Source: Emiliania huxleyi CCMP1516 (taxonomy: Eukaryota). Taken from it: a stretch of DNA of 64,000 nt. A model generated the notes under the pieces. The model was not told where the DNA came from. It searched no databases and saw only the letters and a list, made by a program, of their open reading frames with translations. A program made the position numbers and the translations under genes. The stretch spans positions 62,001-126,000 of the forward strand of contig NW_005201403.1 of NCBI RefSeq assembly GCF_000372725.1, read 5' to 3'. Positions 333-51,300 of this stretch are shown here, piece after piece (the first letter of the stretch is position 1; each line of letters opens with the position of its first letter).

Positions 333-3271
333 CTACCTCTTCCCCTTCTTGCCGCCGAATCCGCGCACGGAAAGCGGCACGAGGCCATACCGGCGCTTGG
401 GCTTCACAGCAGGTGGCGCAGACGCCGTGGCCGCCGTTCTCGTTCGCTCCTTCCCGGCCGGCGGCCGCGCCGCCGGCGCTGCGCCGAATGCCGGCGGCCT
501 CGCAGCAGCGGCCGCGGCGATCGCCGGCGCCTCGGCGTCAGAGAGGCGGTTGTAGCCGCGGGCTGCTGGCGGTGCGGGCGCGCCACGCCTCTTCGTTGAG
601 AAGTCGGCGAAGGAGAGCGAGAGCTCGGAGTAGGTTTGCTCGAGGCCTCGCGACCTCCGGCTCAGCTCGAGCAGCCGCGCCTTGACGAGGAAGACGAGGA
701 AGTGTCTAGGAAGTGTCTAGGAAATGTCTAGGAGCAGCCGCGCCTTGACGAGGAAGACGAGGAAGTGTCTAGGAAGTGTCTAGGAAATGTCTAGGAGCAG
801 CCGCGCCTTGACGAGAAAGACGAGGAAGTGTCTAGGAAGTGTCTAGGAAATGTCTAGGAGCAGCCGCGCCTTGACGAGGAAGAAGAGGACCTGCGCACAG
901 CCGACAAGGGTGAGCGGGGGGAGGGGGGGAGGCGCATCGCCTCGGCGAGGGGCGAAGAGGACCGTCATCGCGGGAAGTGTCTAGGAAGTGTCTAGGAAAT
1001 GTCTAAGAGGACCGTCATGGCGGGAGCGAAGAGCAGCACGGCGAGAGTGGCGCCCTGCCCGTCGCGGGCGAGGAAGCGACCCGCCATCGCAGAGACGGAG
1101 GAGGCGCCTGCAGGAAGGTTCCAAGAAGGTTCCAAGAAGGTTCCAAGAAGCGACCCGCCACCGCAGAGACGGAGGAGGCGCCCGGCGGCGCCGCGCGCTG
1201 CGCCTCCTCGCCTGCGGGCAGCTAGAGGCGTCAAGAGAGTACCGCTCGCAAGCTCGCAGCGCGCGCTGCGCTCCCTCGCCTCGAGCGACCAGCGACTCCA
1301 CCTGCTCGTCGATGAGCCAGCCAAAGGGGACGAACGTGTCGCGCAAGACGAGGACCTGCCGCGGCGCGACAGAGCCTCAAGGCCGCAGAGAGGGGGTGGG
1401 GTGGGGTGGGGTGGGGGCGGGGAGAGCGGGCACCCATCCCCATCCGACAAAGAAGGCCATCGCGCCCGAGATGAAAGCCCTCTCTGACTGGGCGCGGTCC
1501 TAGGCCGAGATCGACCGAGATCATCCGAGATCACCCGAGATCTTCCGAGATGAGAGCCCTCTCTGACTGGGCGCGGCCTTCGAGATGGCGCCGTCGCCGC
1601 CGCCGACAAGGCAGAGCCAGAGGACGCATCCGGCGGTGAGGGCGAGAGTGACGGCGAGGTTCTGCAGCGCGACGTGCAGCGTCGGCTTGGCGTACAGGGT
1701 GGGGACGAGGTCGCACACGACGTCCGTCCACGCGCAGCCCGCTACCCACCCGAGCGTGGCCTGTGGGCGCGGCTGGGCGGGTCGCGGAGAGGAGCATCGG
1801 AGATGTGCACGCGTGGGCCATCGCTGCAACGTGGCCTCGGGTACTCTCGGCCCATCTACGGCTCATCTCGGCCCCTCTCGGCCCACCTCGGCTCATCTCG
1901 GCTCCTCTCGGCCCCTCTCGGCTCCTCTCGGCCTGCGCGAGGTTGGAGAACTCGACCAGCGCCTCGTCCTTCTTTGCCTTCATCTCCAGCGCCGCCACGC
2001 GAGCCGTGTTCGCTCGCTCGCCCAGCTCCGGCTCGCCGTCGCGCGCCGCCGCCGCCGCCGCCGTCGCCTCCGCGCCCTCTGCGACGAAGTACTCCTCCAT
2101 CGCCTCCAGCCAAGTCGCCACCGCTGACCCGACCGCGGTGATCGAGATTGCCCAAAAGATGTAGATACGGGTCGTCACGCCGCCCTGGTCGGGCTCGACG
2201 CCGTGCAGCTCCATCTGCGCAGGGGGAGGGGCGGCCTGGGGCGAGGGGAGGAGGAGGAGGAGAGGGGCTCGCCGCGGATTTGTGGAGGACCGATGCCCAG
2301 GCCGACCACCACCGAAGATGCGAGGTGACCCGAGATTCCCCGAGATTGCCCGAGATTGCGCGCCTTTGTGAGGACGGACGTCCAGACGAGGAAGTGTCTA
2401 GGAAGTGTCTAGGAAATGTCTAGCCTTTGTGAGGACGGACGTCCAGACGACCATCACCGTAGTGGCTGCCGCCTTGGAGACCAGCTGCCAGATCGACTCG
2501 ACCCAGTCCTCGAGCCAGTCGACGACCCTACCATGAAACTCTCTCCCTCATTCACTGCTACCTCGACCCAGCCCTCGCCGCAGCAGTCCGCCTCCCGCTG
2601 CCGCACTCGACCGACTGCGTGAAGGGCTTGAGCAGCGTGATGAGCAGCGTCGAGCCCACCGTCACGAGCGCCGCCAGAGCGAGGTTGAGCCGCGTGCAGT
2701 CCGGCGCCTCCAGTGCTTCGGCTGCCGCTGTCCCGTTGAGCGCCGCCGGCATGTCGCAGAGCTCGGGCCGCGCTGCGCGAAGCTCTCGAAACAGCTGCAG
2801 AAAGGTATCGCCACCCGCCCAGCCGGCCAGCATGCCCGTCATGGACGGGACCGTCTCCGCGCCCGGCAGCGACGCGCATACAGACGAGCGCGCGAGGTGC
2901 TGGACGAGCCCGGCGACGACGCACAGACCCGCCGCGAAGCGCAGCATCGCGATTGACGAGGCTTGCTCTCCACCACCGCCCCACGGGCGAGGGTGGAGGT
3001 TGAAGATGTAGATGGAGAGCAGCTGGTGCCACGTGAACGAGAGGACATAGGCGGCCGTGCCGTCGAGGAAACCGCCCATGACACCGAGCTTGCCACTCAT
3101 CGCCGAGTCGAGTGCGCGCAAGAAACCGCGCGTGTCTCCTCGCCGGACAGCGAGGCCGAGCGCCCGCTGCTGAGGAGAGAAGAGCGTCGTGAGCCACCCC
3201 ATGTGGAAGGGCGGCGCAGGCGGCGCAGCAGACGGCGCAGCACCGTGCAGCGTCTCGCGCGAGGCACTCAA
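333..3271 (-). CDS. Multi-exon multi-pass membrane protein, unknown function
   Basis: ORF 2558-3271 and 1531-2214 carry hydrophobic segments (AYVLSFTWHQLL, LNLALAALVTVGSTLLITLL, RIYIFWAISITAVG, NLAVTLALTAGCVLWLCLV). Removing GC-AG introns 1500-1577, 1212-1279 and 1108-1181 gives continuous frames (AISK|DRAQSERAFISGAMAFFVGWGW; VARG|EEAQRAAPPG|ASSVSAMAG). Last exon ends in TAG at 333-335. Confidence 0.6.
669..880. repeat. 63-bp tandem repeat: exon piece plus (AGGAAGTGTCT)3 spacer
   Basis: GAGCAGCCGCGCCTTGACGAG recurs at 669, 732, 795 and 858, separated by AGGAAGTGTCTAGGAAGTGTCTAGGAAATGTCTAG. Confidence 0.9.
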
Positions 3272-3561
3272 GAAGGAAGGCCGCCGTATTTGGGAAGTTA
3301 CTTTTTCTGCGGCTCCGGTGGTGTGCCGGTGATAGTACTAGCACGCGCCAGTTCGCACCTGTGTCGAGCCTGTCTGCTGTGAGAGAGAGTTGTCTTGTCT
3401 AAATACTTTTTCTGAGCTGGCCAAGGAAACAAAGCAAGGCTCACATGGCATATCGCTCTCGGTCTTTCTCCTTCCTGAACCCGTGCTTTTTACTTTTACG
3501 TTCACACCGCGTCGCTGAAGGATAGAGCACTTGAGCACTTGAGCACTGACTGGATAGGGTC

Positions 3562-5107: not shown

Positions 5108-6535
5108 ATGCCACTACCCGGCGAGGGCTTGTGCCTGGCGGGTGTCGCAGACCCGACCCGCCAGTTCTGCTGCAATGCGACGTGCGGCACGTGCGGAGGG
5201 CGCGGCTGCTCGCAGAGACCTGGAGGCGCTCGCCAGTGCTGCGGGCCTGCCATAATCAGGACAGGACGCCATTGCCGATCCCGCAACGAGGTAGCCTGCT
5301 CCATGGAGGGGAAGGGTCTGCAGCTGCCAGAATGCGAGCGTTGCAGCTTGTGGGACAGCCGCCGTTGTCACCGCCGCCCGACCTGGTCAGCCGCTTCACG
5401 AACAACGCGCTCACTGATGGAGCAGGGTGTCCGAGAATGGCTACACTTTGATGTAGCGGGCGGAGATCGCTCCGTAATTTATTGGGTGACACCAAAGGCG
5501 GCGCACACTAGTATTATGCATCTGCTCCGACGCCCACCATTCCGACTTTCTGGGATCACGAACCTCAGCAAGGCGCTTGCGTTGAAGCCATTTGAGTTCA
5601 CCTTCGTTCGCGAGCCGCTGCAGCTGCTGATCTCGGCTGCTGGTCAGCTACATCACTGCTTGATGTTAACACAGCCTGGTGTTTCACTCCTTGGCTCAGG
5701 TCATGTCCTGGCCAATGCAGACGACGTCAAGCTGATGCTCGACCTATTTTTTCGGGATGACCTTCAAGGATCGTTCGGGTTAGGCCCCTTCCGGAACACG
5801 AGTCAGCTGGGAAAACTCAAGAATTTCAGTCTTTGGCGCTTGAAGTCTTGGGCGACAGGCATGCGCAACTGCGCGCGCGACCACTTGCGCCCACAGGTCT
5901 CAGGCTACAACTTCGATCGGCAACAGGGGGTGGCTCGGTTGCACTTTGTTGGCCGCGTCGAGCGCTTGCGGGAGGATTGGCAGGCAATGCTTAACGAACT
6001 CAGTGTAGCCTCTGGGCCAGTTCGCATTCCGAACAAAAACTCGCGAAAGGCTACGCTTCCAAGTGGCTTGCGGCCCTCGGGGGTGGAGTGGCGGAGGCTC
6101 GAGTCTGATGCGACTGTTCGCCATCACCTCGCTTGGGACTGGCAGTGTTTCGATGCTTCTTTCTTCGCCAGGAACGCTTGTAGCGTCTCACGTTCCTCTG
6201 CATGCACAGCCCACGCTTCCTACAAAGAGTACCAACTCAAGACGCATGTCAAATACACATTCAAGGCGCAGGGCGAGGGGCAGGCAAAGGCACTCAAGGA
6301 CGCACTCAAGACGCAGGGCGAGGGGCAGGCAAAGGCACTCAAGGAAATCTCAGTGCAGATCGAGGCACTCAAGACGCAGGGCGAGGAGCAGGCAAAGGCA
6401 CTCAAGGACGCACTCAAGGCGCAGGGCGAGGAGCAGGCAAAGGCCCTCAACGATATCTTGTCCGCACAGACGGCCGTCCTGACCCAACTTGTATCCGACC
6501 TGCATGTGCTTCCAAAAATCCGGCGCGCTCCCTGA
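5108..6535 (+). CDS. Carbohydrate sulfotransferase (Sulfotransfer_2 family) with N-terminal Cys-rich module and C-terminal coiled-coil repeats
   Basis: 475-aa intronless ORF. 5'-PSB-like YWVTPKAAHTS, 3'-PB-like FTFVREP..LIS, HLRPQ, and LHFVGRVERLREDW. N-terminal CCNATCGTCGGRGCSQRPGGARQCC. Confidence 0.75.
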   Translation: MPLPGEGLCLAGVADPTRQFCCNATCGTCGGRGCSQRPGGARQCCGPAIIRTGRHCRSRNEVACSMEGKGLQLPECERCSLWDSRRCHRRPTWSAASRTTRSLMEQGVREWLHFDVAGGDRSVIYWVTPKAAHTSIMHLLRRPPFRLSGITNLSKALALKPFEFTFVREPLQLLISAAGQLHHCLMLTQPGVSLLGSGHVLANADDVKLMLDLFFRDDLQGSFGLGPFRNTSQLGKLKNFSLWRLKSWATGMRNCARDHLRPQVSGYNFDRQQGVARLHFVGRVERLREDWQAMLNELSVASGPVRIPNKNSRKATLPSGLRPSGVEWRRLESDATVRHHLAWDWQCFDASFFARNACSVSRSSACTAHASYKEYQLKTHVKYTFKAQGEGQAKALKDALKTQGEGQAKALKEISVQIEALKTQGEEQAKALKDALKAQGEEQAKALNDILSAQTAVLTQLVSDLHVLPKIRRAP

Positions 6536-6589
6536 GACGGGATGCTGAGTGAGGACCTGTGTACGTGAGTGGTGTACAGTGTCATGTCT

Positions 6590-6822
6590 ACTAGCTCCGA
6601 GTAGAGGGGGCGTTCTGAAGTTAAGGGGAAACCCGGTACACGGAACCAACCCTCGGAGACCTGTGTTTACTTTAAGGCCCTTTCCCTGCGAACGCGCACC
6701 CCCGGGGCTAGGGCTCTCTTGCCCGCAACCCGATGCCAATCATCCGGCCCGCTGGGTGCGCTTCTTAGCTCCCCGGCCCTGGATGTGCGGTTGATGACTG
6801 CACTCCAAGTGCTCCAAGTGCT
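6590..6822 (-). repeat. Dispersed ~235-bp repeat; inverted copy at 58041-58270, partial copies at 17687-17915
   Basis: CTAGCTCCGAGTAGAGGGGGCGTTCTG...GCGAACGCGCACCCCCGGGGCTAGGGCTCTC...GATGACTGCACTCCAAGTGC is the reverse complement, with scattered differences, of 58041-58270. Confidence 0.85.
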
Positions 6823-7059
6823 CCTCTCCTCGAGGGCGCTCCGTGTCGAATTTCTTGTGCGCGCCAGTCCCGTGCCTAAGAAAGAAAAAAACACCGTGTT
6901 GTTGTCAGAGCAAGCGATTTCTTTTCGGCTCTTCACGCTCCTGAGACGCCCCTCTAAAAAGAGCTGGGCGGGCGGGTCGTCTACTCGACAGGGCCCACCT
7001 ATACACAAAGAATGGGCAAACGCTGGGCCGGGCGCCGGCCGGTGCTCGACCTGGCCGGC

Positions 7060-8719
7060 ATGAGCGCCGCCGTGCCGCCGTCCTCGCACAACGAGGAGCC
7101 GCCGCCGCCGCCCGACGGCGCCGCGGCGCCGGCACCGGCTGCCAATCCGGCTGCCAATCCACAACGAGAAGCCGCCGCCGCCAATCCGCTGCTAGGGCTG
7201 CTCGGTGCGTACCACGACGACGAGGACGAGGACGAGAGCGGCCCAACGGACGGAAGCGCGCCGCAAAGCATCGCCGCAGAGTCCGAGTGGTGCGCCTGGG
7301 GCGCGTGGGAGCGCTGCCACGATCCCGCCTCATCGGCATACTACTTTTGGAACACCGAGACCAACGAGGTGCGGTGGACCGCGCCGGAGCCGCCGCCCGC
7401 AGCATCCGTCGCGGCGGCGCAGCCTGAGGCCGCCGAGCCGGAGCGTGCCCACGCCGGCGGAGGCGGGGCGTCCGCCGCCGCGTCCGACTCCGCCGGAGAC
7501 GGAGCCCCTCTCGCCCCTCTCGCCCCTCTCGGCGAGCCGCCGCCGCCGGCCCCGGACGCCGCCGCCGCCGCTGCTGACGCCGACGCTCCCGCCGCCGACG
7601 ACGACACCGCTGCTCCTGCCGCTGCCGACGCCGCTGCCGACGCCGCCGCTCCCGCCGCCGCCGACGCCCCCGCCCCGGCCGCCCCTCGCCCGTCTGGGGC
7701 GCAGCGCCGCAAGAGGCGCCGCACCTTCGAGGGCCTCGGCACAGGCACCACTCCAGCGGCGGACACCACTGCCTCCGCGGCGGGCATTGCGGCAGCGGGG
7801 GACACTGCGGCAGCGGGCTCCTCGTTGGAGCCCGAGCCCGCGCTGGCCCCGGTCGCCTCGGCCGCCGCTTCGTCCGGTGACGCCGCCCCATCCCGCCCGC
7901 CGCCCCGCGCCTTCCCCTCTGACCCGCCTCCCCCCCCGGGCGACAGGCGGCGGAGAGGAGGCGGGCGGCGGAGAGGAGGCGGACATGTCTAGGACACGTC
8001 CATGACATGTCCGAGACATGTCCTTAGGCGGGCGGAGAGGAGGCGGGTGAGCCCGACCTGGCGGGTGCCATCGCAGCGTCGCTCGAGCAGGCGGCAGCTT
8101 CGAATCGTGTAGCTGGGAGTAGTGTAGCCGTGAATAGCGTCACTGAAGCAGGCGGCAGCGCCGCAGCCCACACACACACCCGGCAATGAGCCCCGAGCCG
8201 CGCCCGCCGGCCGGCGCCTCGCCGCCTTGCCTGGGCTGACCTTGCCCCCCTCCCCGGCCCGCCCCTCAGATGTGCACGCGCCTGCCCGTCCTGCTCCGAA
8301 CCATGCAGGCCGAGCCGCCGCGGGGCAGGGGCGCGGCTGGAGGCGGGCAGGGCGGCGGCGGGCAGGGCGGCGGCGGGCAGGGCGGCGGCGAGGCGGGCGG
8401 CGGCGAGGCGGGCGGCGGCGACGGCGGCGAGGACGGCGCTGGCCAGGCCACTCCCGCCCGCCCCCCGAGCCCTGCCTCTCCCCCTCCCCCTGCCCTTGCT
8501 GCCCCACCCGATTGCAGCTTCTGAGACCCGAAGCAAGGCGCTGCCCGGGCTGCGCTATTCAACCTCTTCACACCGCCCCCAGGGCCTGCGCGCACTGCAC
8601 GGCTTCGAGACGCGGCGCGNNNNNNNNNNNNNNNNNNNNNNNNNNNNNNNNNNNNNNNNNNNNNNNNNNNNNNNNNNNNNNNNNNNNNNNNNNNNNNNNN
8701 NNNNNNNNNNNNNNNNNNN

Positions 8720-8780
<61 letters not shown>

Positions 8781-9746
8781 ACACCCTCCCCCCCCTCCCG
8801 CCTCCTCTGCAGGCGGGAGCGCTGCAGAGCCCGTACCTCTGGTCCCTCCTCCACCGAGACGGCGCACAGCTGCTCCACACCCTCGAGGCGACACACCTGC
8901 CGCCCGGATGGACGCTGTGAATAGTGTAGCTGTGAGTAGTGTAGCTGTGAATAGGCGCTCCACCTGCCTCCCGGCTGGACGCGCGCGTGGGACGTGTCCA
9001 GCCGCGGCTACTATTACGCGCGATCTAGCCGAGATGCAGCCGAGAGGCAGCCGAGAGGCAGCCGAGGTGCAGCCGAGGTGCAGCCGAGGTGCAGCCGAGG
9101 TGCAGCCGAGGTGCAGCCGAGGTGCAGCCGAGAGGCAGCCGAGAGGCAGCCGAGAGGCAGCCGAGAGACCGCCGAGAGGCAGCCGAGGTGCAGCCGAGGT
9201 GCAGCCGAGGTGCAGCCGAGGTGCAGCCGAGGTGCAGCCGAGGTGCAGCCGAGGTGCAGCCGAGGTGCAGCCGAGGTGCAGCCGAGGTGCAGCCGAGGGG
9301 CAGCCGAGGGGCAGCCGAGAGGCAGCCGAGAGGCAGCCGAGGTGCAGCCGAGAGACAGCCGAGAGGCAGCCGAGGTGTCGAGCGCGGCTACTGCTATGCG
9401 CGCCGCTGTGTCGCACCTTCGCGCAAGGGGAGGGCTGCTGGAGACGCATCCGTGAGAGGCGCTTCTGTGAGAGGCGTCAGGCGCACCCTGCAAGCGGCGC
9501 GGCGCAGTGGGACCCGCCGGCGGCCAAGGAGGGGGAGGAGGGGGAGGAGGCGGAGGGGGCGGAGGGGGCGGAGGGGGCGGAGGAGGGGGGGGCGGAGGGG
9601 GGGGCGGAGGGGGCGGAGGAGGGGGCGGAGGGGGCGGAGGGGGGGGCGGCGGGGGCGGAGGGGGGGGCGCCCGTCGTCTCGGACGCGGAGTGGGTGAGGC
9701 GTGCGACGGCGAGGGCTGCGATGCACCCGGAGCGTCGAGCGGCGCT

Positions 9747-18932: not shown

Positions 18933-20285
18933 ATGCTGTCGGACTCGGTCATCGACCTCGACGAGAATTTTCTCGCGGTGCTGATCGTCTACTTCGGACC
19001 GCTTCCGCCGTGGCTGCCGCTCACTCTCGCGTCGATGGCGGCGAACCCGACCGTCTCCTTTTCGGTCGTCGGCGACGCGCCGCCGCCATATACCGGCCTG
19101 CCGCCGAACGTGCGCTTCGAGACGGTCGGCTGGGTCGAGATGCAGGCGAGGCTCGGCGCGCTCAGCGGGCGGCGGGTGTCGTACACGCGGCAGTACAAGG
19201 CCAACGACATCAAGCCGCTCCTCCCAGAGCTGTACCCGCACCTGCTCGCTGGGCGCTCCTGGTGGGCGTGGAGCGACCTCGACGTGGTGTACGGCGATCT
19301 GCGCGCTCACATGGCACTGGCGCTGCGCGCGCCCGCGTGCTGCGCCGGGCGCGAGCTCCAGTGCTCCAAGCGGCTGCGGCGCGACCGCCGCTCGCCGTGC
19401 TTCAACTCGTCGCGTGCTCCGCCCGGCCGGTCGGCAGACACGTGGCGCGACGCGCGTGCGTGCCCGTGCACGGCAGGCGAGCGCGTGACGGCGGTGAGCC
19501 CGCTCTACCCCAACCCTTGGCGCAAAAAGTGCTGGGGCCCGTTCACGGCCTTCCGCGTGGAGGGCGGCGCCTCCGCCGCCGGCGCGCGACCGCCCGCCAC
19601 CACCACCTCTCTCTTCCGGCGGGCGCCCAAGTGGCGGCAAATCGTCGGCACAGCCGAGTACGCACACTTTGATGAGTGGTGGGGGCCGCTCTCGGCGCGC
19701 GGCTTCGAGACGATGGGCGACGTGATGACTCGCCTCTCCGACGCGGGCGAACTCGTCATGTCGCGCGCGCTCCTCCCGTTCGCCGAGGCGAAGAGCTGCG
19801 CCGACGTCGAGTGCACCTTCTGCCCGTGCGGCGCGCTGCGCTTCGAGCTGCGCGGCGGCAAGCTGCTCGTCAACGAGCGCGAGGCGATGCTGCTCCACCT
19901 CTGCACTCCAGTCGGAGCATGATCTTGGAACAAAGGTTGCCCCACTGCTACTGCTGCTAGGCGATGCTGCTCCACCTCTCCGAGTCGAAGCCCGCGTGGC
20001 GCGAGCACGCGCGCCGCCACCCGCTGCCGCCGTGGCGCGCCGGCGCGCAGCCCGAGTGCGTGCGCGTGAGCGGCCTCGGAGCGTTCGCGCCCGACGACGC
20101 GCTTGGCGCCGTCGGCGCGCTGCTACGCCGGCGCACGGCGCTGCGCCGCCACCGGCCGCTCTCGGAGAAGGCGGCGCCGCACCTTCTCTACGGCGACGCC
20201 GCGCTCGCGCTGCCCGGCGCCGAGCGCCTCAACGTTTCCGTCGGCGAGTGCGCAGAGAGCGCCTTTGACGACAGCGGCGACGTGA

Positions 20286-20325: not shown

Positions 20326-21219
20326 ACCGCCCGCCGCGGGTAGATGGCACTCGCGCGCGCTTCTAGGAACCTTCTAGGAACCTTCTAGGAACCTTCTAGA
20401 AACCTTCTAGGTGCGATGGCACTCGCGCGCGCTCGGCGCGACTTTGAAGCGCTCGCCGCGCGGTACGCGGCGGCGGTGGCGGCCGAGCTCGCGCACTCGC
20501 TTCGGTGGATCTGCGCGTGGGCGCGGCTCGCGGCTGTCTACCGCTCCCTCGTCTCGCGCGTCGAGCCGGGCCACCCCGCCGCGGCCAAGCTGCCAGGGCT
20601 CAACGGCAACCGGCGCGTGCGCACGCCGCTGTGGGCGGGAGAGCGCCTCGGCTGGTGGCGGCAGAGCCCAACGTGGGCGGTGCACGACTGGGGCGGGAGG
20701 GCCGACGACCGGCCTAGCGACCGGCCGCCCGACGCCGGCGGCGAGCACCGCGCGTGCCTTTGCTCGGCGCCGCCGGCGCCAGCGGGCTCGTGCTTGGCGG
20801 AGGGCGGAGCGCACTCGTGCGCGCGGCCGCTCGACGCACGGGGCGCGCCGATTGGGCAGCCGTGCCTCGGCAAGCGCGTCGACGGCCGGCCGAGCTGTGG
20901 CGAGCGGTGCGGCGCGGCGGAGCTGCTCGACGAGCTGCTCGACGGCTATTTCGCGCTGCTCAACCGGCAGGCGGTGCTCGCCATCCGCTCGCAGCGGTGG
21001 CGCTGCTCGTGGCTGTACAAGCTGCGCGCATGCTGGACAGCGGAGGGGCTCGCCACCCACGCCGACCCCGAGCGGCCGCTGCCGCCGTCGAGCGGCGCGG
21101 CGTGCGCGAGCGTGCTCCCCCCACAGGACGAGGGGCGGCTCGGGTGGGGCAGCGCGAACCCCGCCAACCTGACGAGGGGAGAGTTGGACTCCCTCCTCTA
21201 CCGGTGGCGTTGCTGGTGA
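18933..21219 (+). CDS. DUF6625-like putative glycosyltransferase with Cys-rich extensions (3 exons)
   Basis: IVYFGPLPPWLPL...ANPTVSF...LPPNV...YKANDIKP...WWAWSDLDVVYGDL (DxD). Introns 19884-19960 (GC-AG) and 20340-20410 (GT-AG) join ORFs 18918, 19964 and 20416 in frame. Confidence 0.65.
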
Positions 21220-21689: not shown

Positions 21690-24600
21690 TCACGTCGTGC
21701 AGTGGATTCCGTCGCCTGCGCCGTCGAGCAGCGGGATCGGGTAGGGCAGCAGCACGCGCGTGAGCAGCCACGGCGGCGGCGGGAGGAGCGCGAGCTCCGC
21801 CGCGCCGCACGCCTCGCGCGCCCGCCCGACCACGCACGAGACGAGCCCGTCCGCCGCCTCGTCGAGACTCACCTGCGGCGGGCGGCGGCGGGCGTGCGCG
21901 CGCGACGCGGGCCTCTTCCGCCGCGCCTCTGCAGCGGGGCGAGCCTTCTCCCCCGCGTGCGCGCGCCACTGCGTGGGCGTGCCGAGGCCGGGCGGGAGAG
22001 GGGTGTACTCGAGGGAGAAGGGCTCGCCGCGCCTGCAGGAGGGTTCGGAGAAGGGTCAGAGAAGGTTCGTGTCGACTCGAGGGGGAGGAGGGATCGCAGC
22101 GCCGCCGCGCGAGCGCGAGGGAGCGGCGGAGCTCGTAGGCGGGTATGACGTACGCGGGGTCGGACGAGTCCTAGGACCGCCACCGCGCGCCTCAAGAGAC
22201 GAGCCGCGGCCGAACGAGCGGCTGCTCGGCGCGCGCCGTGGCGCCCGCTGCGGCGGCGGCGGCGTGCAGCGCGGTCTTGTCGTGGTCGTAGCTTCGCTCG
22301 TAGTAGTTCCTCGCGGCGTAGAACTCAAAGTAGCGGCCGCTCGCGTTGGCGGAGGAGAGGAGCTCTCTCGCGCGCAGAGGAAGCTTGTCTGTCATCTCGG
22401 CGCCGCCCACCTACACGGCCGTCCCCCGAGCCTCTGCTCGGAGCCCTACCGGAGCCCGCCCGTCCGCTCGGCGCCGCGAGCGAGAGCAAGACGGACCTGT
22501 TCACAATGGGAGGGCGTGAGCAGAGGCGCTGTCCACACTCCTCCGATGGGAAGGCGGACGGACGAGTTCGTCGCGTCGATGCGGACGAGCCCTCCGCCAA
22601 AGGCGTCGGACAGCCACGCCGGTGCGGCAGCGGCGCTGCTTTGCTCCGCGAGGGCGGTCTGCAGCAGCCCCGTGGGGACGAGGAGGTGGTTCGAGCCGCC
22701 TGTCGGCAGACGGGTGCGGTTTGGCCGTGGAGGGGAGAGTGAGGACGAGGAAGCGCGTCGCCGTAGTTCTTGACGTTGCCGTACATCGTCGAGCTCGCCA
22801 TCATCTGCAGCCCGAGCACGGGGCCGAGGAAGCCGTACGCGGCGGCGGCGGCGGCGGCGGCGCCGGTGAGGTCGGTGGCGTGGGCGAGCGCGAAGCGGAG
22901 AGGGAAGCGCGGCGCCCAGAGGCAGAGGAGCGCCACGCCGAGGCCGCAGCACGGTAGCGTGGCTGAGGGGAGGGCCGCGGGCGGAACGGCGACGAGCGCG
23001 ACGAAGGTGGCCTAGCAGGGGGTGTGGGGGGGGGGGGGGGGGGGGACTACGCTGGCTGGGCTGGAGCAGTTGGGCTGGAGTCGGGCTGGGGTGGCTGTGC
23101 TGGAGTAGGGCCGGAGTAGTCGGGCTGGAGTAGTCGGCTCGCCATCTTGGCGACAGCGTGCGGCTGCTCCTCGAGGCGGAGGTGTCCGTATGCGCCCGAG
23201 GCACCGCCACCGCCACCGCCTGCCGGCGCGGCGATCGAGAGGAAGTAGAAGAGGGCGAGGGCGAGGAAGATGCCGCCGTGCGCGTCGAGCGAGCCGTGGA
23301 TGGCGACCATCACGCCTGGCGGGGAGGTACTTTATCCTTGTCTTTCTTTCAGCCCGCATTTTCGACATCACGACCGCACCGCCGGCTTGTTGACCACACT
23401 CCATACGGGTGGCCGAGGGGTGGCCGAGGTGTGGCCGAGGTGTGGCCGAGGTGTGGCCGAGGTGTGGCCGAGGGGTGGCCGGAGTGTGGCCGAGGGGTGG
23501 CCGAGGTGTGGCCGAGGTGTGGCCGGAGTGTGGCCGAGGAACAGCCGCACGCCCGTGGTGACGGCGACGAGCGCGGTGGCGCCGACGGCCCGCGGAGCGA
23601 AGCCGACGCCGCGGCGGAGAGTTGCCGATGCGCCGGCGGCGGCGGCGGGGAGGAAGATGATTTGTCGCGCGCACATGGCGATGGAGAAGCCGCCGGCGTA
23701 GGTGGCTGGCATCAGGTTGATGGTCTGGTGGAAGACGAGGGCGAGCAGGACGCCTAGTGAGTCGTCATGAACGAGGAGTCCGTCATTCGGTCAGTCATGA
23801 GGAGGTCTGGTGGAAGATGAGGGCGAGCAGCAGCCGGAGGGGGGCGGGACGGGGGCGTGCAGGGAGAGGGGGAGGAGAGGGGGGCGAGGCGGGGAGGAGG
23901 GGTTGGAGAGGAGGGTTGGAGAGGGAGGGTTGCCGTGGCGTGGCTGCAGGAGCAGCAGGGCCGGCACTGCGAACTCGATGCCGGCGACGAGGGCGGGCGC
24001 CGCGTGCAGCATGAGCCCGCTCAGGGTGGCGAGGGGCGGGAAGAGGGGCTCGAGGCCGGAGAGGAGCTCCTATCGACTGAGGCGTGGCTGGTGAAGGAAT
24101 GGCTCATTCCGAGGGGCTCGAGGCAAGAGAGGAGCTCCTATTCCGTGGCGTGGCTGGGGGTACGGGGCTGGAGCGGCGGGGAGGAGCGGCTCGCGGCGAG
24201 AGGAGCAGTTCCGACATGAGGACTGTCGAGCACGAGTAGTGGCCGTCGTACCTGCCGGGAAGGATTAGAGCTTCCAACAGGCGGCCGCATCTCGGCTGCA
24301 TCTCGTCTGCATCTCGTCTGCATCTCGCACCACGAGGAAGTGAGCTTCCAAAAGGCGGCCGAGAAGTAGAGGACGACTAGCTGCGCGCGCATCGCCGGGA
24401 GGAACTTGCGAGCCGTCTCCGCCATCGAGGAGGATGTGGCGGCGGCGAGCACGAAGGGGGCCTCCATCAGCGCGCACCAGCACATATAGTCCCACACCGC
24501 CTAGCAGGAGGCGCTCGAGCGACGGCTCAGAGACGGACCCTCTCTGGTCTGCGGACATGCAAGTCCGGCCCGGCCGGCATCCGGTCGGCCCATCCGACGA

Positions 24601-32161: not shown

Positions 32162-34045
32162 TCAGCGGTCGGTCGGCAACTCCACCACAGTTGGCTCGTC
32201 CTCGTCCTCGTCGGCCAAGTCCACCTCGATGTCGATTCGGAAGCGCTCGAGGGCAAACGCGCGAAGCCTTGCGAGCTAATGCGGGGAGGGAAGGACGGGT
32301 TGAGAGGGGGAGGGCAAGCGACTCACAAAAGAGTGGGGGACACGCCTCGGCGGCGAGAGCGGGCGCGAGAGCTTGTTGCCCCTCCGCCTTGGCGAGCGGT
32401 TCCGCGCCCGCGCGCGCGGCGAGTCCGCCGAGCGCCGACCTTGAAAGCAAGGACCGCGGCGTGGAATCTAGCGGCTGAACCGGGCAAACGCCCCCCCCCC
32501 CCCCTCCCTCCCTCCCTCCCCCCCCCGTGCGCGCCGCAAGAAGTTGTCGGCCGAGAGCTCGTCGTCAAAGAAGTCGGGCGGCGCGAACGCGAGCTGCGCC
32601 AGCCGCGGCCCGGCTCAGGCGGGGTCCGGATAGGGGGGACGGCCAAGGGTGGAAGGGCAGCCACGGCCGAGGGGCATCGCACCTGCGCGCGGAGGGCCTG
32701 CACGAATCCAACAAAGAGCGCGGTGCGCGCCTAGACAGCACAAGCGTTGTGAGGGCGATTTCCGAAGCGGCGCCGAAAAGGCGGCGCCGAAGAGGACGTG
32801 TCGCGGGCCTTGAGCGCAGCCTCTAGGGTTAGGGTTAGGGTTAGGGTTAGTGTCGCGTGCCTTGAGCGCAGCCTCGCAGCCGCACAGGAGCGACACGAGC
32901 CGCTTCCACTGCTCGAGCGACGCGAGGCAGGAGAGGCGGAGGAAGAGCAGGAAGGACAGCTGCAGCTCGCCGAGCAAACCCGCCTCGCACGCGCTCAGCC
33001 CGTCGGCCGCGCGAGCCGGCGGCCGACTCGAGTCCGGCGGCGGAGAGTACTCGTGCGCGAGCAGCCAGCCGAGCCACTCGGACCGGTCGAGCAGAAAAGA
33101 GGTCAGTGCGCCGCCGCGTCGCCCGCCGACGCCACGGCTGCCGTCCGGGCGCAGCGCGTGAGGGTCCACCTCGACGTATCTCGCCGTGGCGGTGACCGCA
33201 GCTGCACCGCCACCGCACCCACCTCCACCCTCCGAGCCGCCTTCAGATGCGCCGCCACCTGCTGCGCCACCTATGGACATGTCCATGGCATGTCCGGGAC
33301 ATGTCCCGTAGGCCGCCTCCTGGTACGCCGCCGCCACCTGCTGCGCAGCTCCCCGCCCGCTCCCCGGCAGCGGCGGGTGCGGCCGGCGCTGCCACATTGG
33401 CTTCAGCCTGGACAGCTTCAGCCTGGGCGCAGCGGCTGCGGCGGCGCGCCGCGGAGGCGCCTGCCCCGGCAGGGAGGGCCTCGAGGTCTTCGGCTGCCGA
33501 GGGACCGACGAGCGTGGGCGGCGCGATGGCGGCCCGGGCGAGGGCCGCGGGCGAGATGTGCTGCGTGAGCGCGGCCCATTCTCCCCAAGTGCCCAGCGGG
33601 TACGGGCCGAGCGACGCGTCGAGCGAGAGGCTACGGGACGGCGGCGACCAGTCAGCGGGCGCGAGTGTCTCGATGCGTGGGCATCGATGGGTCGGTGGGA
33701 TGGGGCTTGGCGCCTCGATGTGGCGGCAGCGTGAGGTGCTGCCTCGGCGGGCGCCAGAGGCAGCAGCAACTCCACCGCCGCATCCCACCGGAACACGGCC
33801 ACCTCGGAGGGAGCGAGCGAGACGAAGCAGCCTGTGCGATCCATGTCGGTGCCAAAGACGAGGAAGTGGACGCCCTGCGTCGGGATCATCTTCATGCCGC
33901 CAAAGCGATCCCCGACGGTGTACGAGCGCAAGTCGACGCCAAACTCCCGGCCCGCGGGAAGGCCGAGGCACACCAGAGTGCCGCCCCGCTGCGTGAGCTG
34001 TAGCGCCTCCTCTGGGTCGAGCGACGGCACGTCTGGACCAGACAT
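32162..34045 (-). CDS. AAR2: U5 snRNP assembly factor AAR2 (multi-exon)
   Basis: GTLVCLGLPAGREFGVDLRSYTVGDRFGGMKMIP..VHFL; LLGELQLSFLLF...SLEQWKRLVSLLC; DFFDDELSADNFL; C-terminal DEDEDEPTVVEL. Stop at 32162-32164. Confidence 0.9.
32824..32850. repeat. Interstitial telomeric (TTAGGG)n array in an AAR2 intron
   Basis: TAGGGTTAGGGTTAGGGTTAGGGTTAG. Confidence 0.95.
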
Positions 34046-38935: not shown

Positions 38936-41900
38936 CTATCTTCCGGTGGCGGCCTTGTTGAGCGCTCGGCCGAATGCTGCCGTCGCGACCCGGCGCAGAC
39001 CGGAGCCGATCGAGAGCGCACGCGGGGAGACGGACGCTAGCAGCGACGCCGCGGCGGGGTCAACCGGCATTGACTTCCGCTGCCGCTTCGCAGGCGGGGC
39101 ACTGGCCGGCTTCGACGAGCCGGCCGTCGCCGACGCGCCTGGCTGCGCTGGCTGCACCGCCTTCCCGCGGCGCGAGCACGTCACCAGGACTTGGCAGAGG
39201 CCAGGGTGGTTGTTCGGGAGCGGGCAGCCCTGTATGCCACAGACGTCGCGCAGAGCAAAGCCGCCGCCCCTCGCCTCGTCCTTTTCGGTCCGCTGTGGCA
39301 CTTGCGCTTCGCCGCTCGGCAGAACTGCCGCAGCAGCTCTTTTCTCCTCGTCGCTCAGCAGAACCTTGACGAAACGAGGCGCGACGCGCTCCTCCGAGTC
39401 GCCGTCGTCGTACGCAATGTCGCACTTTCCATCGGCGTGCACCGCGGTCACCGTCCCGGGGAACCCTGGTGGGAGGAGGGCGGAATTAGACGGGGGCGGG
39501 GGGTGGGCGAGGGCGAAGGCGAGGGGGCACGGACAATTCACGCCGCCGATGTCGCCCTGAAACTTTGCCTGCACCCGATCGCCCGGCTTGAGCTCCACGG
39601 CCGGCAGGACCGAGCTGAGCAGCGTCCACCGCTTCGAGGTGGCGGCGGCGGCGGCCCTGGCTCGGTCGGCGGCCTCCTTCGCGACTTGCCTCGCGGCCTG
39701 CTGCGCGGCCTGCTTCTCGGCAGCGGCCGCCGCCTTGGCAGCGGCACGCTCGGCGGCGGCGGCCTCGCGCTTGGCGGCCGCGGCGGCGGCGGCGGCGGCT
39801 CGGGCAGCAGCGCGCTGCCTGAGGCGCTCGGCGACCTCCGCGCTCACGAAAGCGCGCAAGCGGCCGGGCGGCACGCGCCGCTCGGTGTCTCCGTCCTCGT
39901 AGTGGATGTCGTAGCTGCCGTCCTCGTGCGCCGTCCCCACCCAGCCGTTGAACCAGCGGCCAGAGGCTCGCGAGATGGGTCCGCAATACTGCGCCTCGAC
40001 CCGCTCTCCCACGCCCGGCTTGCGCCGCCCGCCGAGCAGAGCGAGCGCCACCGCCACCGGCCTCTGACGGGCGAGCCTACAGCGCCGGCGGCAGACGAGT
40101 CTCGACTTGCAGACGGTGCAGACCGCACCCCTCTCCTGCGCCCGCCTTGCTGCAGCGGCTGCTGCGGCGCGCGGCTCGCGGTCGCCGGCCTCGTCGCAAT
40201 CTGGGCAGCAATAGCCACCGGGACCGGGCTGCAAGTGGCCCGGCGTGCCGCGCCCGACCGAGCTGCAGCCGGCGGCCTCAGCGCAATCGCCGTGCACGCT
40301 GCGGCCGCAGCAGTCACACGAGAGCCACACGCCTAAGGGGCAGGGTTAGGGTTAGGGTTAGGGTTAGGGTTAGGGTTACACACGCCTGCGGGGCAGGGGG
40401 CGAGCGACGCGTCGCGGCCTCGGCCGCCGCTCGCACCGCCGCAGTGTGCGTTGGCCCGCCGCTCGAGACGTCTGTATCTCGGCTAATCTGAGCTATCTCT
40501 CGGCTACATCTCGCCGCTGAAGGAGAGGCCCGACGCGGAGAGGTGTCGCTTGGTGCCGCAAAAGCACGCGCCTACAGCATCATCAGCAGCAGCAGCATCG
40601 CAGCCGCCTCGCCTCGGCCCCTCTCGGCCCCTCTCGGCCCCTCTCGGCTAGAGCCCCTGTCGCCTCGCTCAGGAAGCTCTGGCCTCGGCCCATCCAGCAC
40701 CACCGCCTCGTCCGCCGCGCGAGGCTCCTGTCTCTCCATCTGGCACCACCGGACGTAGCACTCCACGCCCGACCTGCTGGGCAAGCGCACCCCTCACACC
40801 ACCACAGGCGAGTCGGCAGGCAGCACGGTGCGCCACAGACCGGCCGGGGATGTGAGTCGACACCACGCCAAAGAACTCGCCGCGCAGCCCGCTGCCCATC
40901 GCCCTGCCGCAGAGAGGCGCGAGCCGCGGCACGAGCGCGCGGAGCCGCTCGTCGCCGTTGCGCTTGCCGAGCCACGGCAGCGGCGGCGGTGTGCGGCGAC
41001 TCACCGCGCCAGCCTCGCGCTCGGCGTCTGGCCTGCTGAAGGGCGGAGGACGAGAGGGNNNNNNNNNNNNNNNNNNNNNNNNNNNNNNNNNNNNNNNNNN
41101 NNNNNNNNNNNNNNNNNNNNNNNNNNNNNNNNNNNNNNNNNNNNNNNNNNNNNNNNNNNNNNNNNNNNNNNNNNNNNNNNNNNNNNNNNNNNNNNNNNNN
41201 NNNNNNNNNNNNNNNNNNNNNNNNNNNNNNNNNNNNNNNNNNNGAGAAGAAGCGCTGCTCGCCGCTGCCGACGCCGCCGCTGCCGGGAGGGATGCCGAGG
41301 TTGTAGCCGCTCTGCCGCATCCACGCGAAGGGCAGCACCGGTCCAGAGTACTCGCAGATCGGCAGTCCGGCAGTGAGGTCTCTCCGAGCGATGAGGCCGA
41401 GGCCGCAGTCGGTGGGGGCGACGTAGCAGAAGGGAGATATCGGCCTACTCGCGGAGGGTGCGCGTCACTTCCCTCCCCGACGCAACGCAGCCGTGGCGAG
41501 GCGACCGCGCCCGAAGGCGACCGCCGTGAGCAGCGCCGCGGTTTGGCGAGCGCTCTCCGCGAGCTGCTCGGCAATGTCCGCTCGCGAGGTGGGCACACGC
41601 GGCTCCGCCGACGGATTCTCGACGGGCACAGCCGCCGCGGCCGTGTGCCGTGTCTGTCGAGGCGGCGGCGGCAGGCAGGGCGGCACCTCGGCCTGGTGAG
41701 CCTCGCCGAGCTGCTGCTCCCTCCGCCACGCACCGGCGTTGCCGAGCAGACTCGGCCGCAGCGCCTGGAAGGCTTCGATGGGCGCGCGGTCGAGGAAGCT
41801 CTTGTCAGGCTCCCAAGAGTCGTCCTCCGGCGCGTAGCCGACCCACCGGACGAGGAACTCGCGCCCACCCCGCCGCTGCCGCACGTCGAGGATGCGCTCG

Positions 41901-44070: not shown

Positions 44071-44177
44071 GCGCCCCGTCTAAAATTAAAATCCCTCCCA
44101 CAGCCCACCGTAAATCCGTCTTTTTCAGGCACCCGGAGCCCTCCGGCTCCGCGGCCGCTTCTACGCCGGCGAAGCAC

Positions 44178-44640: not shown

Positions 44641-44672
<32 letters not shown>

Positions 44673-48108: not shown

Positions 48109-48358
48109 GCTAGTAAAAGAAAGAAAGAAAGAAAACACACAAGCCAAGGGAGATGGGAGGACGGCACGCCGCCTAGTAAATAAATAAATAAAACGGGCAC
48201 GCCAAACGAGGGGTGGGAGAAGGACAGGGTCCCCACCTGCACGAGCAAGATCTTGTAAGGCGCCTAGTGTCGTGCGGGTGCACAAATTCTTTTCTCAGTG
48301 CACAAGGTAGGTGGAGCTGTGTTCCGCGGCCCAACCCAGAGGCTGCCTCGCGCGCGCG

Positions 48359-51300
48359 ATGGGGCTGCCGTTCAACCCGCTCGCCCCCGTCGACCGCATC
48401 GCGGGCGTCGAGATATCTCGGGCGCAGTGCGCCGAGATGATGCAGACCGACTGCTCGATGCAGGGAGCGATCGGTGTCAACGGCCACTGCTACGTGCTGA
48501 GCGAGCGGGGCCATACATGCAGCGACGCGTGTGAGGGAGCGGCGCGCGTCGACGTGGAGGCGACGCGCAAGTTCTCCACAGACAGCGCGGTGGTCACTTG
48601 CCTCGAGATGGCGCTCGGGCTCGAGTCGCGGCACGACATCATGGACCAAGTGGGGCAGGCATGCCCTGGGATCCACCTCCTCATCGACGGACTGCACCGG
48701 TGGCACTGCTACCCGCAGTTCACCGCCTTTGACTTCCCGGCCGGCTTCCGCGCGCCCTGCGCGTGCTGGTCCGCGCCATCGCCGCCGCCGTCGCCGCTGC
48801 CTCCGTCCCCTCCGCCGGCGCCGCCGCCGTCATCGCCGCCGCCGCCTTCCCCACCCACGCCTCCGCCCCCCTCGCCACCGCCCGCGCCGCCACCGCCCTC
48901 CCCTCCACCCACACCGCCGCCGCCCTCTCCTCCACCTGCGCCGCCGCCGCCCGAGCCGCCGCCGCCCGAGCCGCCGCCGCCTTCGCCGCCGCCGTTGCCG
49001 CCGCCGCCCTCTGCCCCTCCGCCGTCGCCGCCGCCGCCGCCGTCTCCTCCGGAGCCGTCTCCTCCGCCGCCGCACCAACCGCATCCCAAGCCTCCGTCAC
49101 CGCCGCCTCCGCCGCCGTCGCCTCCGTCGCCGCCCCCGTCGCCTCCGCACCCGCCGCCCCGTCCGCCGCCGAGCCCGCCGAGCCCGCCATCGCCGCCCCC
49201 GGGCCCGCCGCCTCGGCCGCCGCCGTCGCCGCCCCCGCCCCCGCCACCTCCTCCTGCGCCGCCGCCGCCCTCGCCGCCGCCGCCCTCGCCGCTGCCGCCC
49301 TTCCCGCCCCCTCACGCGCCGCCTCCAAACCCCAAGGCGCCTCCTGCGCCTCCCGCCGCTCCGCCGCCGTCGCCGCCGCCGCCGTCGCCGCCGCCGCCGT
49401 TGCCGCCGCCTTCGCCGCCGCCGCCTTCGCCGCCGCCGCCCTTCCCGCCTCCGCCCTCACCTCCGCCGATGCCTCCGCCGCCGCCCAGCCCGCCTCCGCC
49501 CTCGCACCCGCCGCCCCCGTCGCCGCCGCTGCCGCCCTCGCCGCCCAATTCGCCACCGCCCTCGCCGCCGCCCTGCGCGGGGCACTACGTCACCGGCCAC
49601 TGCTGGGTGCTGACGGACGAGGGCCAGTCGTGCACCGACTTCTGCGGCTTCCCCGCCGCGGTCAACGCGACGAGATGGGGCGCAGCTCCTCGCCGGGCGA
49701 GCAGTGAGTGAACTCCTCGGCTCATTCATAGGTCAACGCCGACGAGATGGGGCGCAGCTCCTCGTCGCCCGACGTCGCCTACCACCTGACCTCGGCGTAC
49801 TCGCTCAACAACGTCTCCTCGCCGCACTTCCACCGCCTCGGCAAGGAGTGCTCGGGCGAGTCGCAGTACTTGTACATGCCGCTCGCAAACGGCTGGGACT
49901 GCTACAAGCACGAGACCTTCGACCGCATCGACGGATGGCAAACCGCAGCCGACGCGCCCGCGACGTCGCGCGGGGTCTTGTCCGGGACACGTCCCGGCCG
50001 GCCGTAGGTTCCGCAGCCCCTGCACCTGCAACGAGCCGCAGCCAGAGAGGCTGCCGCAGGCGGCACTCTTCGGGGTCGGGGCCGGCCTCGCCGCGTTCCT
50101 CGTCAACTTCGCGCTGGGCGGGCTGCTGCACGGCAAGACGCGCCGCCGCTCGTCGATGATCGCTTGCGCGCTGCTCTTCGTCGCGCAGCAGCTCTTCCTC
50201 CTCCTCGTTCTCTACCACTTGCACCAGGCGCGACCGCCGCCGCCGCCGCCGCGCAAGCCACCCCCTCTCCCTCCGACGCTCCTCGCTCGTCCGACTGCGG
50301 CGCACTGATTCCCGTCCCCGCCCACGCACCCCTCACGCCGACCCGCCGCCCCGCCGCGCCGCCCCCGCGACCCCTCAGGAGGAGTTTACCATCCCCGAGG
50401 CTTTCCTCGCCAGCTGCATGCTCGCCTCCCTCGCAGCGACCGCCCTCTTCACGCTCAGCCCGGCGCCCCTCTTCATCGCCATCCCCGGAGACGTCGTCTC
50501 CACTCCCCGCGGCCTCGTCCGCATCACCTCCACCGCCCCGTCCGAGGACGGCTACTCCTCGCGCGCAGTCGCCACACCGGGCTCTCGCGCCCTCGAGTAT
50601 GAGTCGCTCCCCTCCCCCTCCACCGGCGCATGGGGCTCCCCTTCCTCCGCCGGCGCCCCCTCGCCCGCCGCGGCGCGCGGCAGCGGCCTCCACTCACCTC
50701 TCGTGCGGGTGATGCGCTCGCCCACGTGCGCGCCTGCCGGGGGAGCGGTCGCCGCTCGCTGTGGCGTCTGCTCACGCGTCTCTTGGCTGTGGGCAGGAAC
50801 GAGCCGGGCAGCGAGGAGACGATTCCCGCCGACGACCTGCACACGTACACGCCGAACGGGGAGACGGCGCTCCGAGGCAAGCTGACCGGCCTCCTCGCAG
50901 CGACGGGGCTGCTCACGCCTGTCGAGGGGCTCGTCTCGCTCGCGCCAACCTCTGCAGTCAGCTGCTGCCTCAGCGAGCACGAGGCCAAGCAGAGAGCCGA
51001 GAGAGCGACGCTGAGCGGCGCGGTTGCGCGCGGCGGCGGCAGCGGTCATGCCGTCGAGGGCGAGTCGCGGCTCTACGACCTAGGAACCTTCTAGGAACCT
51101 TCTAGGAACCTTCTCGTAGGTCATGCCGTCGAGGGCGAGTCGCGGCTCTACGCGCCGATCTGCTTTGTGCAGGCCACGTTCGGGTCGGCGCCGCCGCTCT
51201 TCTTCCTCTCGGTGCTGCTCGCCAACGAGGGCTTCCACCGGGTCGTCCACAACATCGGCCTCAACCGCGGGGAGGCGCGACTCAGACACCGCCAGGACAC

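What the first reader, a model, noticed from the sequence alone, without database searches (positions are those of the whole stretch)
1108..51119. Introns that start with a copy of their own downstream exon: candidate duplication-plus-filler intron-gain system
Seen: in three unrelated genes, introns whose removal restores the reading frame have the form GY+[~20-35 nt near-identical to the start of the next exon]+[filler, usually a 10-11-bp repeat]+YAG. Cases: 1108-1181(-), 1212-1279(-), 1500-1577(-), 19884-19960(+), 20340-20410(+), 49661-49731(+), 51045-51119(+). Lengths are 74, 68, 78, 77, 71, 71 and 75 nt. Example: G|GTCATGCCGTCGAGGGCGAGTCGCGGCTCTACG..(TAGGAACCTTC)3..TAG|GTCATGCCGTCGAGGGCGAGTCGCGGCTCTACG. 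Similar structures lie near 7947-8027 (FNBP4) and 2363-2450. Established: tandem duplication of an AG|GY site and double-strand-break repair are proposed intron-gain routes, and GC donors are common in E. huxleyi. Inference: staggered-break repair duplicates exon sequence, which supplies the donor, while a small set of reused fillers (AGGAACCTTCT, AGACACTTCCT, ATCTCGG, GACATGTCC) supplies the acceptor. This would create new introns of near-constant length without a transposon.
Basis: partly seen in the sequence, partly recalled or inferred. Interest (0 to 1): 0.9.

Follow-up and report, generated by a model that had tools for sequence, protein, structure and literature searches.

The report
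Alga makes introns by self-duplication
In the bloom alga Emiliania huxleyi, a stereotyped insertion of about 70 bases (a copy of the target site plus a short filler) recurs at well over a hundred sampled sites and is spliced out of the transcripts that could be checked, so it is likely an ongoing, transposon-free source of new introns, probably made during DNA-break repair.

Summary
Confirmed, and larger than reported. The window is Emiliania huxleyi. All seven structures are at the stated coordinates; 21 such structures occur in the window versus 0-1 in shuffles. RNA contigs and transcript-type proteins confirm five of the seven junctions; the two in the middle gene are unconfirmed. In metagenome contigs, 96 of 123 filler arrays sit between direct repeats (1% in controls). 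The unit is a ~26-nt target duplication plus a ~43-nt filler, ~70 nt in total. Two empty alleles were found: one in this window's gene and one in a PPWD1 coding exon, so insertion is recent. Fillers are diverse and tend to resemble nearby repeats; no parent element was found. Best model: staggered-break repair with a locally templated patch. It would explain the species' GC donors and unconserved intron positions. The enzyme and the ~70-nt ruler are unknown. I found no description in ten literature searches, but could not read the 2013 genome paper. The scan noted one similar single intron in another genome.

The parts
1108..1181 (-). 74-nt intron, start-type: 35-nt copy of next exon + 11-mer family-B variant filler (gene 1, EMIHUDRAFT_440159)
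   Evidence: (RNA contig record 11)
1212..1279 (-). 68-nt intron, start-type: 20-22-nt copy + non-repetitive filler; RNA keeps the downstream copy
1500..1577 (-). 78-nt intron, start-type: 33-nt copy + 10-mer filler; spliced contig depth 78.4, retained 30.6
19884..19960 (+). 77-nt predicted intron, start-type: 19-21-nt copy + non-repetitive filler (gene 2); splicing not confirmed
   Evidence: no homologue
20340..20410 (+). 71-nt predicted intron, start-type: 22-nt copy + family-B filler (gene 2); splicing not confirmed
49661..49731 (+). 71-nt intron, start-type: 32-nt copy + non-repetitive filler (gene 3)
51045..51119 (+). 75-nt intron, start-type: identical 33-nt copy + family-B filler (gene 3); no intron at the aligned site in genomic-type ORFs of a distant relative
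681..869 (-). 189-nt intron, inner type: AAG|GC inside a 32-nt duplicate; duplicate + family-A filler repeated three times (669-889)
   Evidence: (joint 693-1005)
955..1025 (-). 50-nt insertion that duplicates an existing donor and lengthens intron 891-1012 from 72 to 122 nt; polymorphic, empty allele in P0005 and P0069
2362..2450 (-). 61-62-nt insertion that duplicates an existing donor and lengthens intron 2215-2424; also present in metagenome locus L068
2528..2591 (-). 64-nt intron with a decayed copy of the next exon (likely older event)
7947..8027 (+). 81-nt predicted start-type intron with palindromic 10-11-mer filler
8081..8159 (+). duplication + 15-mer-family filler; best window match to the filler of 8888-8954
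8888..8954 (+). 67-nt predicted start-type intron with 15-mer filler
23722..23834 (-). duplication + non-repetitive filler; predicted 81-nt start-type intron 23754-23834
32798..32875 (.). 26-nt duplication flanking 4.5 telomere-type TTAGGG repeats
33236..33346 (+). duplication + palindromic 10-11-mer filler; predicted 76-nt intron 33236-33311
49938..50007 (+). 70-nt intron with a weak 8-nt remnant of a duplicate; no intron at this site in genomic-type ORF P0003 of a relative

Best explanation
E. huxleyi carries a recurrent insertion of about 70 nt, a ~26-nt duplication of the target site around a ~43-nt filler, that is spliced out where transcripts could be checked and that likely arises when a staggered DNA break is repaired with a patch copied from another, often nearby, sequence. 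Inferred steps: two nicks about 18-36 nt apart open the site; one 3' end primes by 1-3 nt of microhomology on a neighbouring intron repeat or satellite and copies 30-55 nt; it rejoins the other end, and fill-in leaves duplicate-filler-duplicate. In a coding exon the allele would survive only if the spliceosome removes exactly the inserted length. Where an old donor is duplicated the insertion is simply absorbed into the old intron. New fillers then become templates for later events nearby, so intron repeats spread along genes without a mobile element.
For: Shown: spliced junctions. Flanking repeats at 96 of 123 arrays versus 1.1% of 2425 shuffled pairings and 19 of 221 local controls. Sizes in 82 clean events: duplicate median 26, filler 43, total 69, 68 of 82 within 60-83 nt; copies identical in 49 of 79. 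The same size in 80 events outside the search pattern (median 70). Exact spliceability in 71 of 82 versus about 47% simulated, and 58 of 80 versus 48%. Empty alleles: P0005/P0069 for 955-1025 and L001 versus L064, 98.3% identical, for a 70-nt insertion in a PPWD1 coding exon. Junction microhomology 1.5 and 2.1 nt versus 0.6 simulated. Families A and B mix on 2 of 17 multi-event contigs versus 7.8 expected, P=0.002, with family A in both orientations. 9 of 56 other fillers match their own +-2 kb versus about 3% for random loci. No shared non-orthologous flank next to 123 arrays. Precedent: breaks with overhangs give tandem duplications, occasionally with in-cis templated inserts (PMC5730883, passages).
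Against: No break, enzyme or intermediate was observed. The ~70-nt total also holds for 25 events with no usable splice site (median 70; Mann-Whitney P=0.29), which plain end-joining does not predict. Not all fillers are local: the family-B fillers at 20340 and 51045 match each other best, 31 kb apart, and four window fillers have no match in the window. Same-contig similarity among non-A/B fillers was not significant (2 of 39 versus 25 of 1731, P=0.12). Splicing of the polymorphic PPWD1 insertion was not observed, and its acceptor would be AAG. Empty alleles come from assemblies, which can collapse repeats. The loci were picked by a perfect-repeat pattern, which favours young events.
Confidence: 0.58

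Rival explanations
1. The filler is copied from RNA by a reverse transcriptase at a staggered nick (target-primed reverse transcription). The template would be the gene's own pre-mRNA or intron lariat tail, a satellite transcript, or telomerase RNA, giving the same duplication and the same new introns.
For: Variable long duplications and junction microhomology fit target priming (own knowledge). Family B is strongly polar: 14 of 20 start-type on one strand, 1 of 20 on the other. Fillers with their non-repetitive ends recur at other loci (records 8, 19, 22, 26, 30). One filler is TTAGGG, the telomere repeat of this species (bioRxiv 2024.05.26.595999, passages). A gene's own RNA would also explain local clustering.
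Against: Family A lies in both orientations on one contig and gives start-type sites equally on both strands (12 and 12 of 62). Many fillers do not end in AG. No poly(A) tail or parent element was seen. One telomerase template cannot make the many filler families.
Confidence: 0.24
2. Replication template switching with no break: the polymerase leaves the template, copies a nearby repeat, and re-enters 18-36 nt upstream, producing the same duplicate-filler-duplicate.
For: It predicts microhomology at both junctions and nearby templates in either orientation, and a fixed synthesis tract could explain the ~70-nt total and the negative duplicate-filler correlation (r=-0.60 on 84 events).
Against: Re-entry is always upstream by a narrow range; 89 of 123 arrays have an adjacent duplicate, and deletions at the junction were not scored. 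The correlation could come from boundary uncertainty or from selection on intron length.
Confidence: 0.12
3. These are non-autonomous transposons (introners) with unusually long target duplications.
For: Filler families recur at many loci. Known introners co-opt a splice site from their target duplication, including in the haptophyte Chrysochromulina (bioRxiv 2022.06.06.494994, passages).
Against: Fillers start and end at many registers, 38 of 80 are singletons, duplications are 18-36 nt against the 4-8 nt examples in that paper, and no shared flank or partner element was found.
Confidence: 0.04
4. Old introns were later overwritten by copies of the next exon, or the duplications are assembly errors.
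For: No empty allele was found for the seven flagged introns.
Against: The structures recur in independent DNA runs and a metagenome. Empty alleles hold one duplicate and no intron. Genomic-type ORFs of relatives run through sites 49938 and 51045. E. huxleyi introns show no detectable position conservation with other eukaryotes (PMC3174169, passages).
Confidence: 0.02

Closest known systems
[quoted passage not shown]
   Same: New introns flanked by direct repeats, with inserted DNA, read as repair of staggered breaks; presence/absence alleles in populations.
   Different: The review reports short repeats at 43% of gained introns and only 5 unambiguous events for this route. Here repeats are 18-36 nt, present at 78% of sampled arrays, the product has a narrow size, and the duplicate itself supplies one or both splice sites.
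Tandem genomic duplication of an AGGT proto-splice site (Rogers model; PMC3443670)
   Same: Duplicated exon sequence supplies donor and acceptor; coding sequence is unchanged.
   Different: The duplicate alone is far shorter than these introns; a foreign filler supplies the length and, in the start-type, the acceptor.
Introners (bioRxiv 2022.06.06.494994 and PMC12130899, passages read)
   Same: Many new introns in one genome; a splice site recruited from a target duplication; recurrent sequence families.
   Different: No defined element ends or shared flanks, many unique fillers, far longer duplications, and filler family tracks the neighbourhood. PMC12130899 calls introners the only mechanism able to explain bursts of gain.
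Tandem duplications with in-cis templated inserts after paired nicks (PMC5730883, passages read)
   Same: Duplication of the overhang, microhomology, locally templated insert.
   Different: Shown at engineered breaks in mouse cells, inserts occasional, no link to introns or to a fixed total length.

Membership tests
Introner (transposon-derived intron family) | Near-identical introns end to end at unrelated loci | tested here: not met
   Fillers form families but with variable registers and lengths; 38 of 80 are singletons. A few fillers recur near-identically elsewhere.
Introner (transposon-derived intron family) | Short fixed target duplication and/or terminal inverted repeats | tested here: not met
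   Duplications are 18-36 nt and variable. Inverted ends were not searched by a dedicated call; none is evident in the printed fillers.
Introner (transposon-derived intron family) | An autonomous or longer parent element | tested here: inconclusive
   No shared non-orthologous flank adjacent to 123 arrays; no whole genome was available.
Tandem genomic duplication (Rogers) | Duplicated exon segment contains AG|GY used as both sites | tested here: met
   62 of 146 events have such a site; used at 681-869. Not the case for the start-type.
Tandem genomic duplication (Rogers) | Intron consists only of duplicated sequence | tested here: not met
   A filler of 30-55 nt lies between the copies; events were selected for having one.
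Intron gain by double-strand-break repair | Direct repeats flank new introns more often than background | tested here: met
   96 of 123 versus 1.1% and 8.6% in two controls.
Intron gain by double-strand-break repair | Presence/absence alleles within the species | tested here: met
   L001/L064 and P0005/P0069; assembly-based, and none for the seven flagged introns.
Intron gain by double-strand-break repair | Product depends on a break and on end-joining enzymes | not testable with these tools
   Needs induced breaks or mutation-accumulation lines.
Non-LTR retroposition (target-primed reverse transcription) | Polar insert equal to the 3' end of an RNA, with a parent element | tested here: inconclusive
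   Family B polar, family A not; no parent found.

The most novel reading that the evidence does not exclude
E. huxleyi has a dedicated, still active copy-and-patch mutation process with an intrinsic ~70-nt ruler. It has generated a large share of the species' introns (tens of thousands, extrapolating from roughly one event per 4 kb here) without any transposon, and it is self-feeding because new fillers template later ones nearby. It would account for the majority-GC donors, the 10-11-mer intron repeats and the loss of ancestral intron positions: a second engine of burst-scale intron gain beside introners.
Probability: 0.5. Interest if true: 0.92.

Novelty: new variant of a known kind. Interest (0 to 1): 0.82.

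Why it matters
Where new spliceosomal introns come from is a long-standing question, and burst-scale gain is currently credited to transposons. Here a non-transposon product is frequent, young, polymorphic and easy to recognise, in a cultured alga with several strain genomes, so rate, template and enzyme can be tested directly. It offers one explanation for known oddities of this species. Donors recruited from GC-rich exons would be mostly GC: 35 of 50 start-type events use GC and 67% of GGY in the duplicates is GGC, against 56-65% GC donors in PMC4028052. Intron positions are unconserved (PMC3174169). It also matters for annotation: the NCBI model of gene 1 picks a junction inside a duplicate that the RNA does not use.

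Tried and rejected
No whole genome was held, so there is no genome-wide count; metagenome loci stood in for it. The first read-laying was swamped by repeats; I used its contig coordinates only. An exact-flank search for empty alleles found 0 of 170; pairwise alignment of overlapping loci then found one, and most of those 14 pairs were the same contig or near-identical. No homologue was found for gene 2. The viral-contig scan gave 3 loci with a different, AT-rich 11-mer and no evident link. Pfam gave no family above its cut-off for genes 1 and 3. The idea that fillers are always intron 3' tails ending in AG was rejected as a general rule. The idea that the ~70-nt size is purely selection for intron length was not supported: events without splice sites have the same median. 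The gene-1 part returned nothing and was redone. PMC2784329 (passages) and PMC13518057 (passages) did not describe these structures. One X9 contig continues left of 1107 without being laid on the window; unresolved and not used.

Full report
Identity. No genome was held. An exon of the minus-strand gene at about 330-3200 is 100% identical to EMIHUDRAFT_440159 of Emiliania huxleyi CCMP1516, so the window is E. huxleyi. Below, D is the duplicated segment and F the filler.

Observation. A gapped catalogue finds 21 D-F-D structures in the window, including all seven, against 0-1 in each of five shuffles. A few of the 21 are probably coding or satellite repeats. Four of the seven fillers are 10-11-mer repeats; three are non-repetitive.

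They are introns. In RNA run X12 one 306-nt contig (depth 121.8) skips 311 nt (122+189), then 1108-1181, 1212-1279 and 1356-1433; the spliced model gives exactly 306 nt. For 1500-1577 a 57-nt contig of the spliced size (depth 78.4) stands beside a retained form (30.6). In metatranscriptome X11 a contig places window 1577 at record position 437; the model gives 437 if that contig starts at 532, which I deduced from a distance-to-end figure. DNA runs X6, X9 and X10 show none of these joints. Five of the 11 other members of the gene-1 protein cluster cover the region and all five read through the three junctions using the downstream copy; the other six end earlier. The NCBI model instead uses a junction inside the duplicate at 1204-1271. 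In gene 3, 6 of 15 listed proteins cover the 49661 junction and 11 cover the 51045 junction, all in the spliced form. Gene 2 (19884, 20340) rests on frame continuity only; its homologue search was empty. These are contigs and predicted proteins, not raw reads.

It is not local to this window. A pattern covering two 11-mer families (A, AGGAAGTGTCT; B, AGGAACCTTCT) returned 126 stretches from the quarter of the metagenome collection that was scanned, about 480 estimated in all; 125 loci were stored. Of 141 distinct arrays, 123 had 60-nt flanks. Of these, 96 lie between direct repeats, against 1.1% of 2425 shuffled pairings and 19 of 221 same-locus controls. In 89 the repeat abuts the array. After dropping 7 nested or duplicate rows, 82 events give D median 26 nt (10-90%: 18-36), F 43 (32-56), total 69, with 68 of 82 within 60-83 nt; the copies are identical in 49 of 79. 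A filler-blind scan found 170 events, 93 outside the search pattern. The 80 kept after removing pure tandems have median total 70 nt, filler GC 49% against 70% in D, and fall into 46 groups, 38 of them singletons; 18 of the 80 are still variants of A or B. I take these high-GC loci to be E. huxleyi or close kin: L068 is 98.5% identical to the window, the rest were not assigned.

Three outcomes. Exact removal on some strand is possible in 71 of 82 A/B events against about 47% in simulation, and in 58 of 80 others against 48%; start-type sites are 22 of 80 against 8.8%. Total lengths are spread evenly modulo 3, as expected if they are spliced or non-coding. In the window, 681-869 is an inner-type intron, and 955-1025 and 2362-2450 duplicate an old donor and only lengthen existing introns.

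They are new. P0005 (ENA) and P0069 (JGI) read through 955-1025 with one copy of D and no filler. L001 and L064, from different metagenome assemblies and 98.3% identical, differ by a 70-nt insertion: a perfect 31-nt D containing AAG|GT plus a 39-nt filler almost wholly of A and T. It lies in a coding exon of PPWD1 (E=1e-57 for the upstream exon; residues 295-329 for this one, E=0.007). It shifts the frame unless removed, and removing GT...AAG restores the L001 reading. L001 keeps its other duplications, which argues against systematic assembly collapse but does not exclude it. Its splicing was not observed. Genomic-type ORFs of distant relatives run through sites 51045 (P0010, P0045) and 49938 (P0003) and break at other positions; that they are genomic is my inference from their intron-like ends. 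Against: no empty allele was found for any of the seven flagged introns in five DNA runs or the loci.

Where fillers come from. Families A and B mix on 2 of 17 multi-event contigs against 7.8 expected (P=0.002), and A occurs in both orientations on one contig. Of 56 other fillers, 9 match their own +-2 kb after masking the event, against about 3% for random loci; one of the 9 is a local satellite. In the window the three A fillers of gene 1 share a variant seen in 4 of 58 A fillers, and the filler at 8888 best matches one 800 nt upstream. Against a purely local source: filler-to-filler similarity on the same contig was not significant (P=0.12), two B fillers 31 kb apart match each other best, four window fillers have no match in the window, and near-identical fillers occur at other loci. 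In-register junctions show 1.5 and 2.1 nt of microhomology (45 and 51 junctions) against 0.6 simulated; the search pattern and splice selection bias the second figure. No non-orthologous flank is shared next to 123 arrays. One filler is telomere repeat.

Mechanism. Shown: the product, its sizes, its splicing at five flagged sites, two empty alleles, microhomology, local clustering. Inferred: a staggered break, priming on a nearby template, rejoining, fill-in, and selection for alleles that splice cleanly (0.58). Rivals are reverse transcription from RNA (0.24), break-free template switching (0.12), introner (0.04) and old introns or artefact (0.02). That these are recent intron gains, whichever enzyme makes them, I put near 0.9. 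Unexplained: events with no usable splice site also centre on 70 nt, hinting at an intrinsic ruler, though some may be spliced by other sites.

Literature. Ten searches returned no title or abstract describing this structure in haptophytes. I read passages only, found by term search, of PMC2784329, PMC4028052, PMC12130899, PMC3443670, PMC13518057, bioRxiv 2022.06.06.494994, PMC5730883, PMC3174169, PMC8379373 and bioRxiv 2024.05.26.595999; no supplements. PMC4028052 reports 56-65% GC donors and frequent intron retention. Here 35 of 50 start-type YAG events use GC and 67% of GGY inside D is GGC, which fits donors recruited from exon sequence. PMC3174169 found no detectable conservation of E. huxleyi intron positions. 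[quoted passage not shown] The 2013 genome paper (Read et al.) and the Daphnia paper were not held. I recall that the genome paper notes abundant 10-11-bp repeats in introns; whether it or its supplement notes the flanking duplications is unchecked and could lower novelty. One earlier scan note describes a single similar intron in another genome; it is unchecked, and I saw it before running the local-template test.

Verdict. A real, recent and widespread duplication-plus-filler insertion that creates introns. It works like break-repair intron gain combined with proto-splice-site duplication, and is not an introner on the features tested. Its scale, long duplications, narrow size and local templating make it a new variant of a known kind. 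Interest 0.82.

Noticed in passing
window 32798-32875 and 40342-40378: TTAGGG repeats inside the sequence; the first sits between 26-nt direct repeats like the other fillers, which may point to telomerase or to copying from another telomeric tract.
   Followed up: partly
window 3220-5200 and 6460-7000: Very high summed contig depth in DNA runs: high-copy, transposon-like repeats, not identified.
   Followed up: no
window 1204-1279: The NCBI protein model takes a junction inside the duplicate; the RNA contig and five transcript-type proteins use 1212-1279.
   Followed up: yes
window 669-889; also L018, L034, L085, L094, L098: The whole duplicate+filler unit is itself repeated two or three times in tandem, suggesting secondary expansion.
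   Followed up: partly
window 1221-1291, 1504-1550, 1106-1145: Contigs from other loci in DNA runs match these filler stretches at 0-3 differences; the first includes part of the duplicate and exon.
   Followed up: no
L029:1676-3380: A 1.7-kb satellite of the family-A 11-mer without flanking duplication; a possible template reservoir.
   Followed up: no
L126, L127, L128: Contigs of one giant-virus MAG hold arrays of a related AT-rich 11-mer; no link to these insertions was tested.
   Followed up: no
window 1108-1181 and 1500-1577: The reading of P0005 implies one repeat unit fewer in each intron than in the window: filler copy number varies between strains.
   Followed up: partly
L001:1060-1524: The PPWD1 gene carries three duplicate+filler events within about 500 nt when L064 is included.
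   Followed up: partly
window 9027-9377, 23409-23539, 53702-54944: Long 10-11-mer arrays of other families, not examined for flanking duplications.
   Followed up: no
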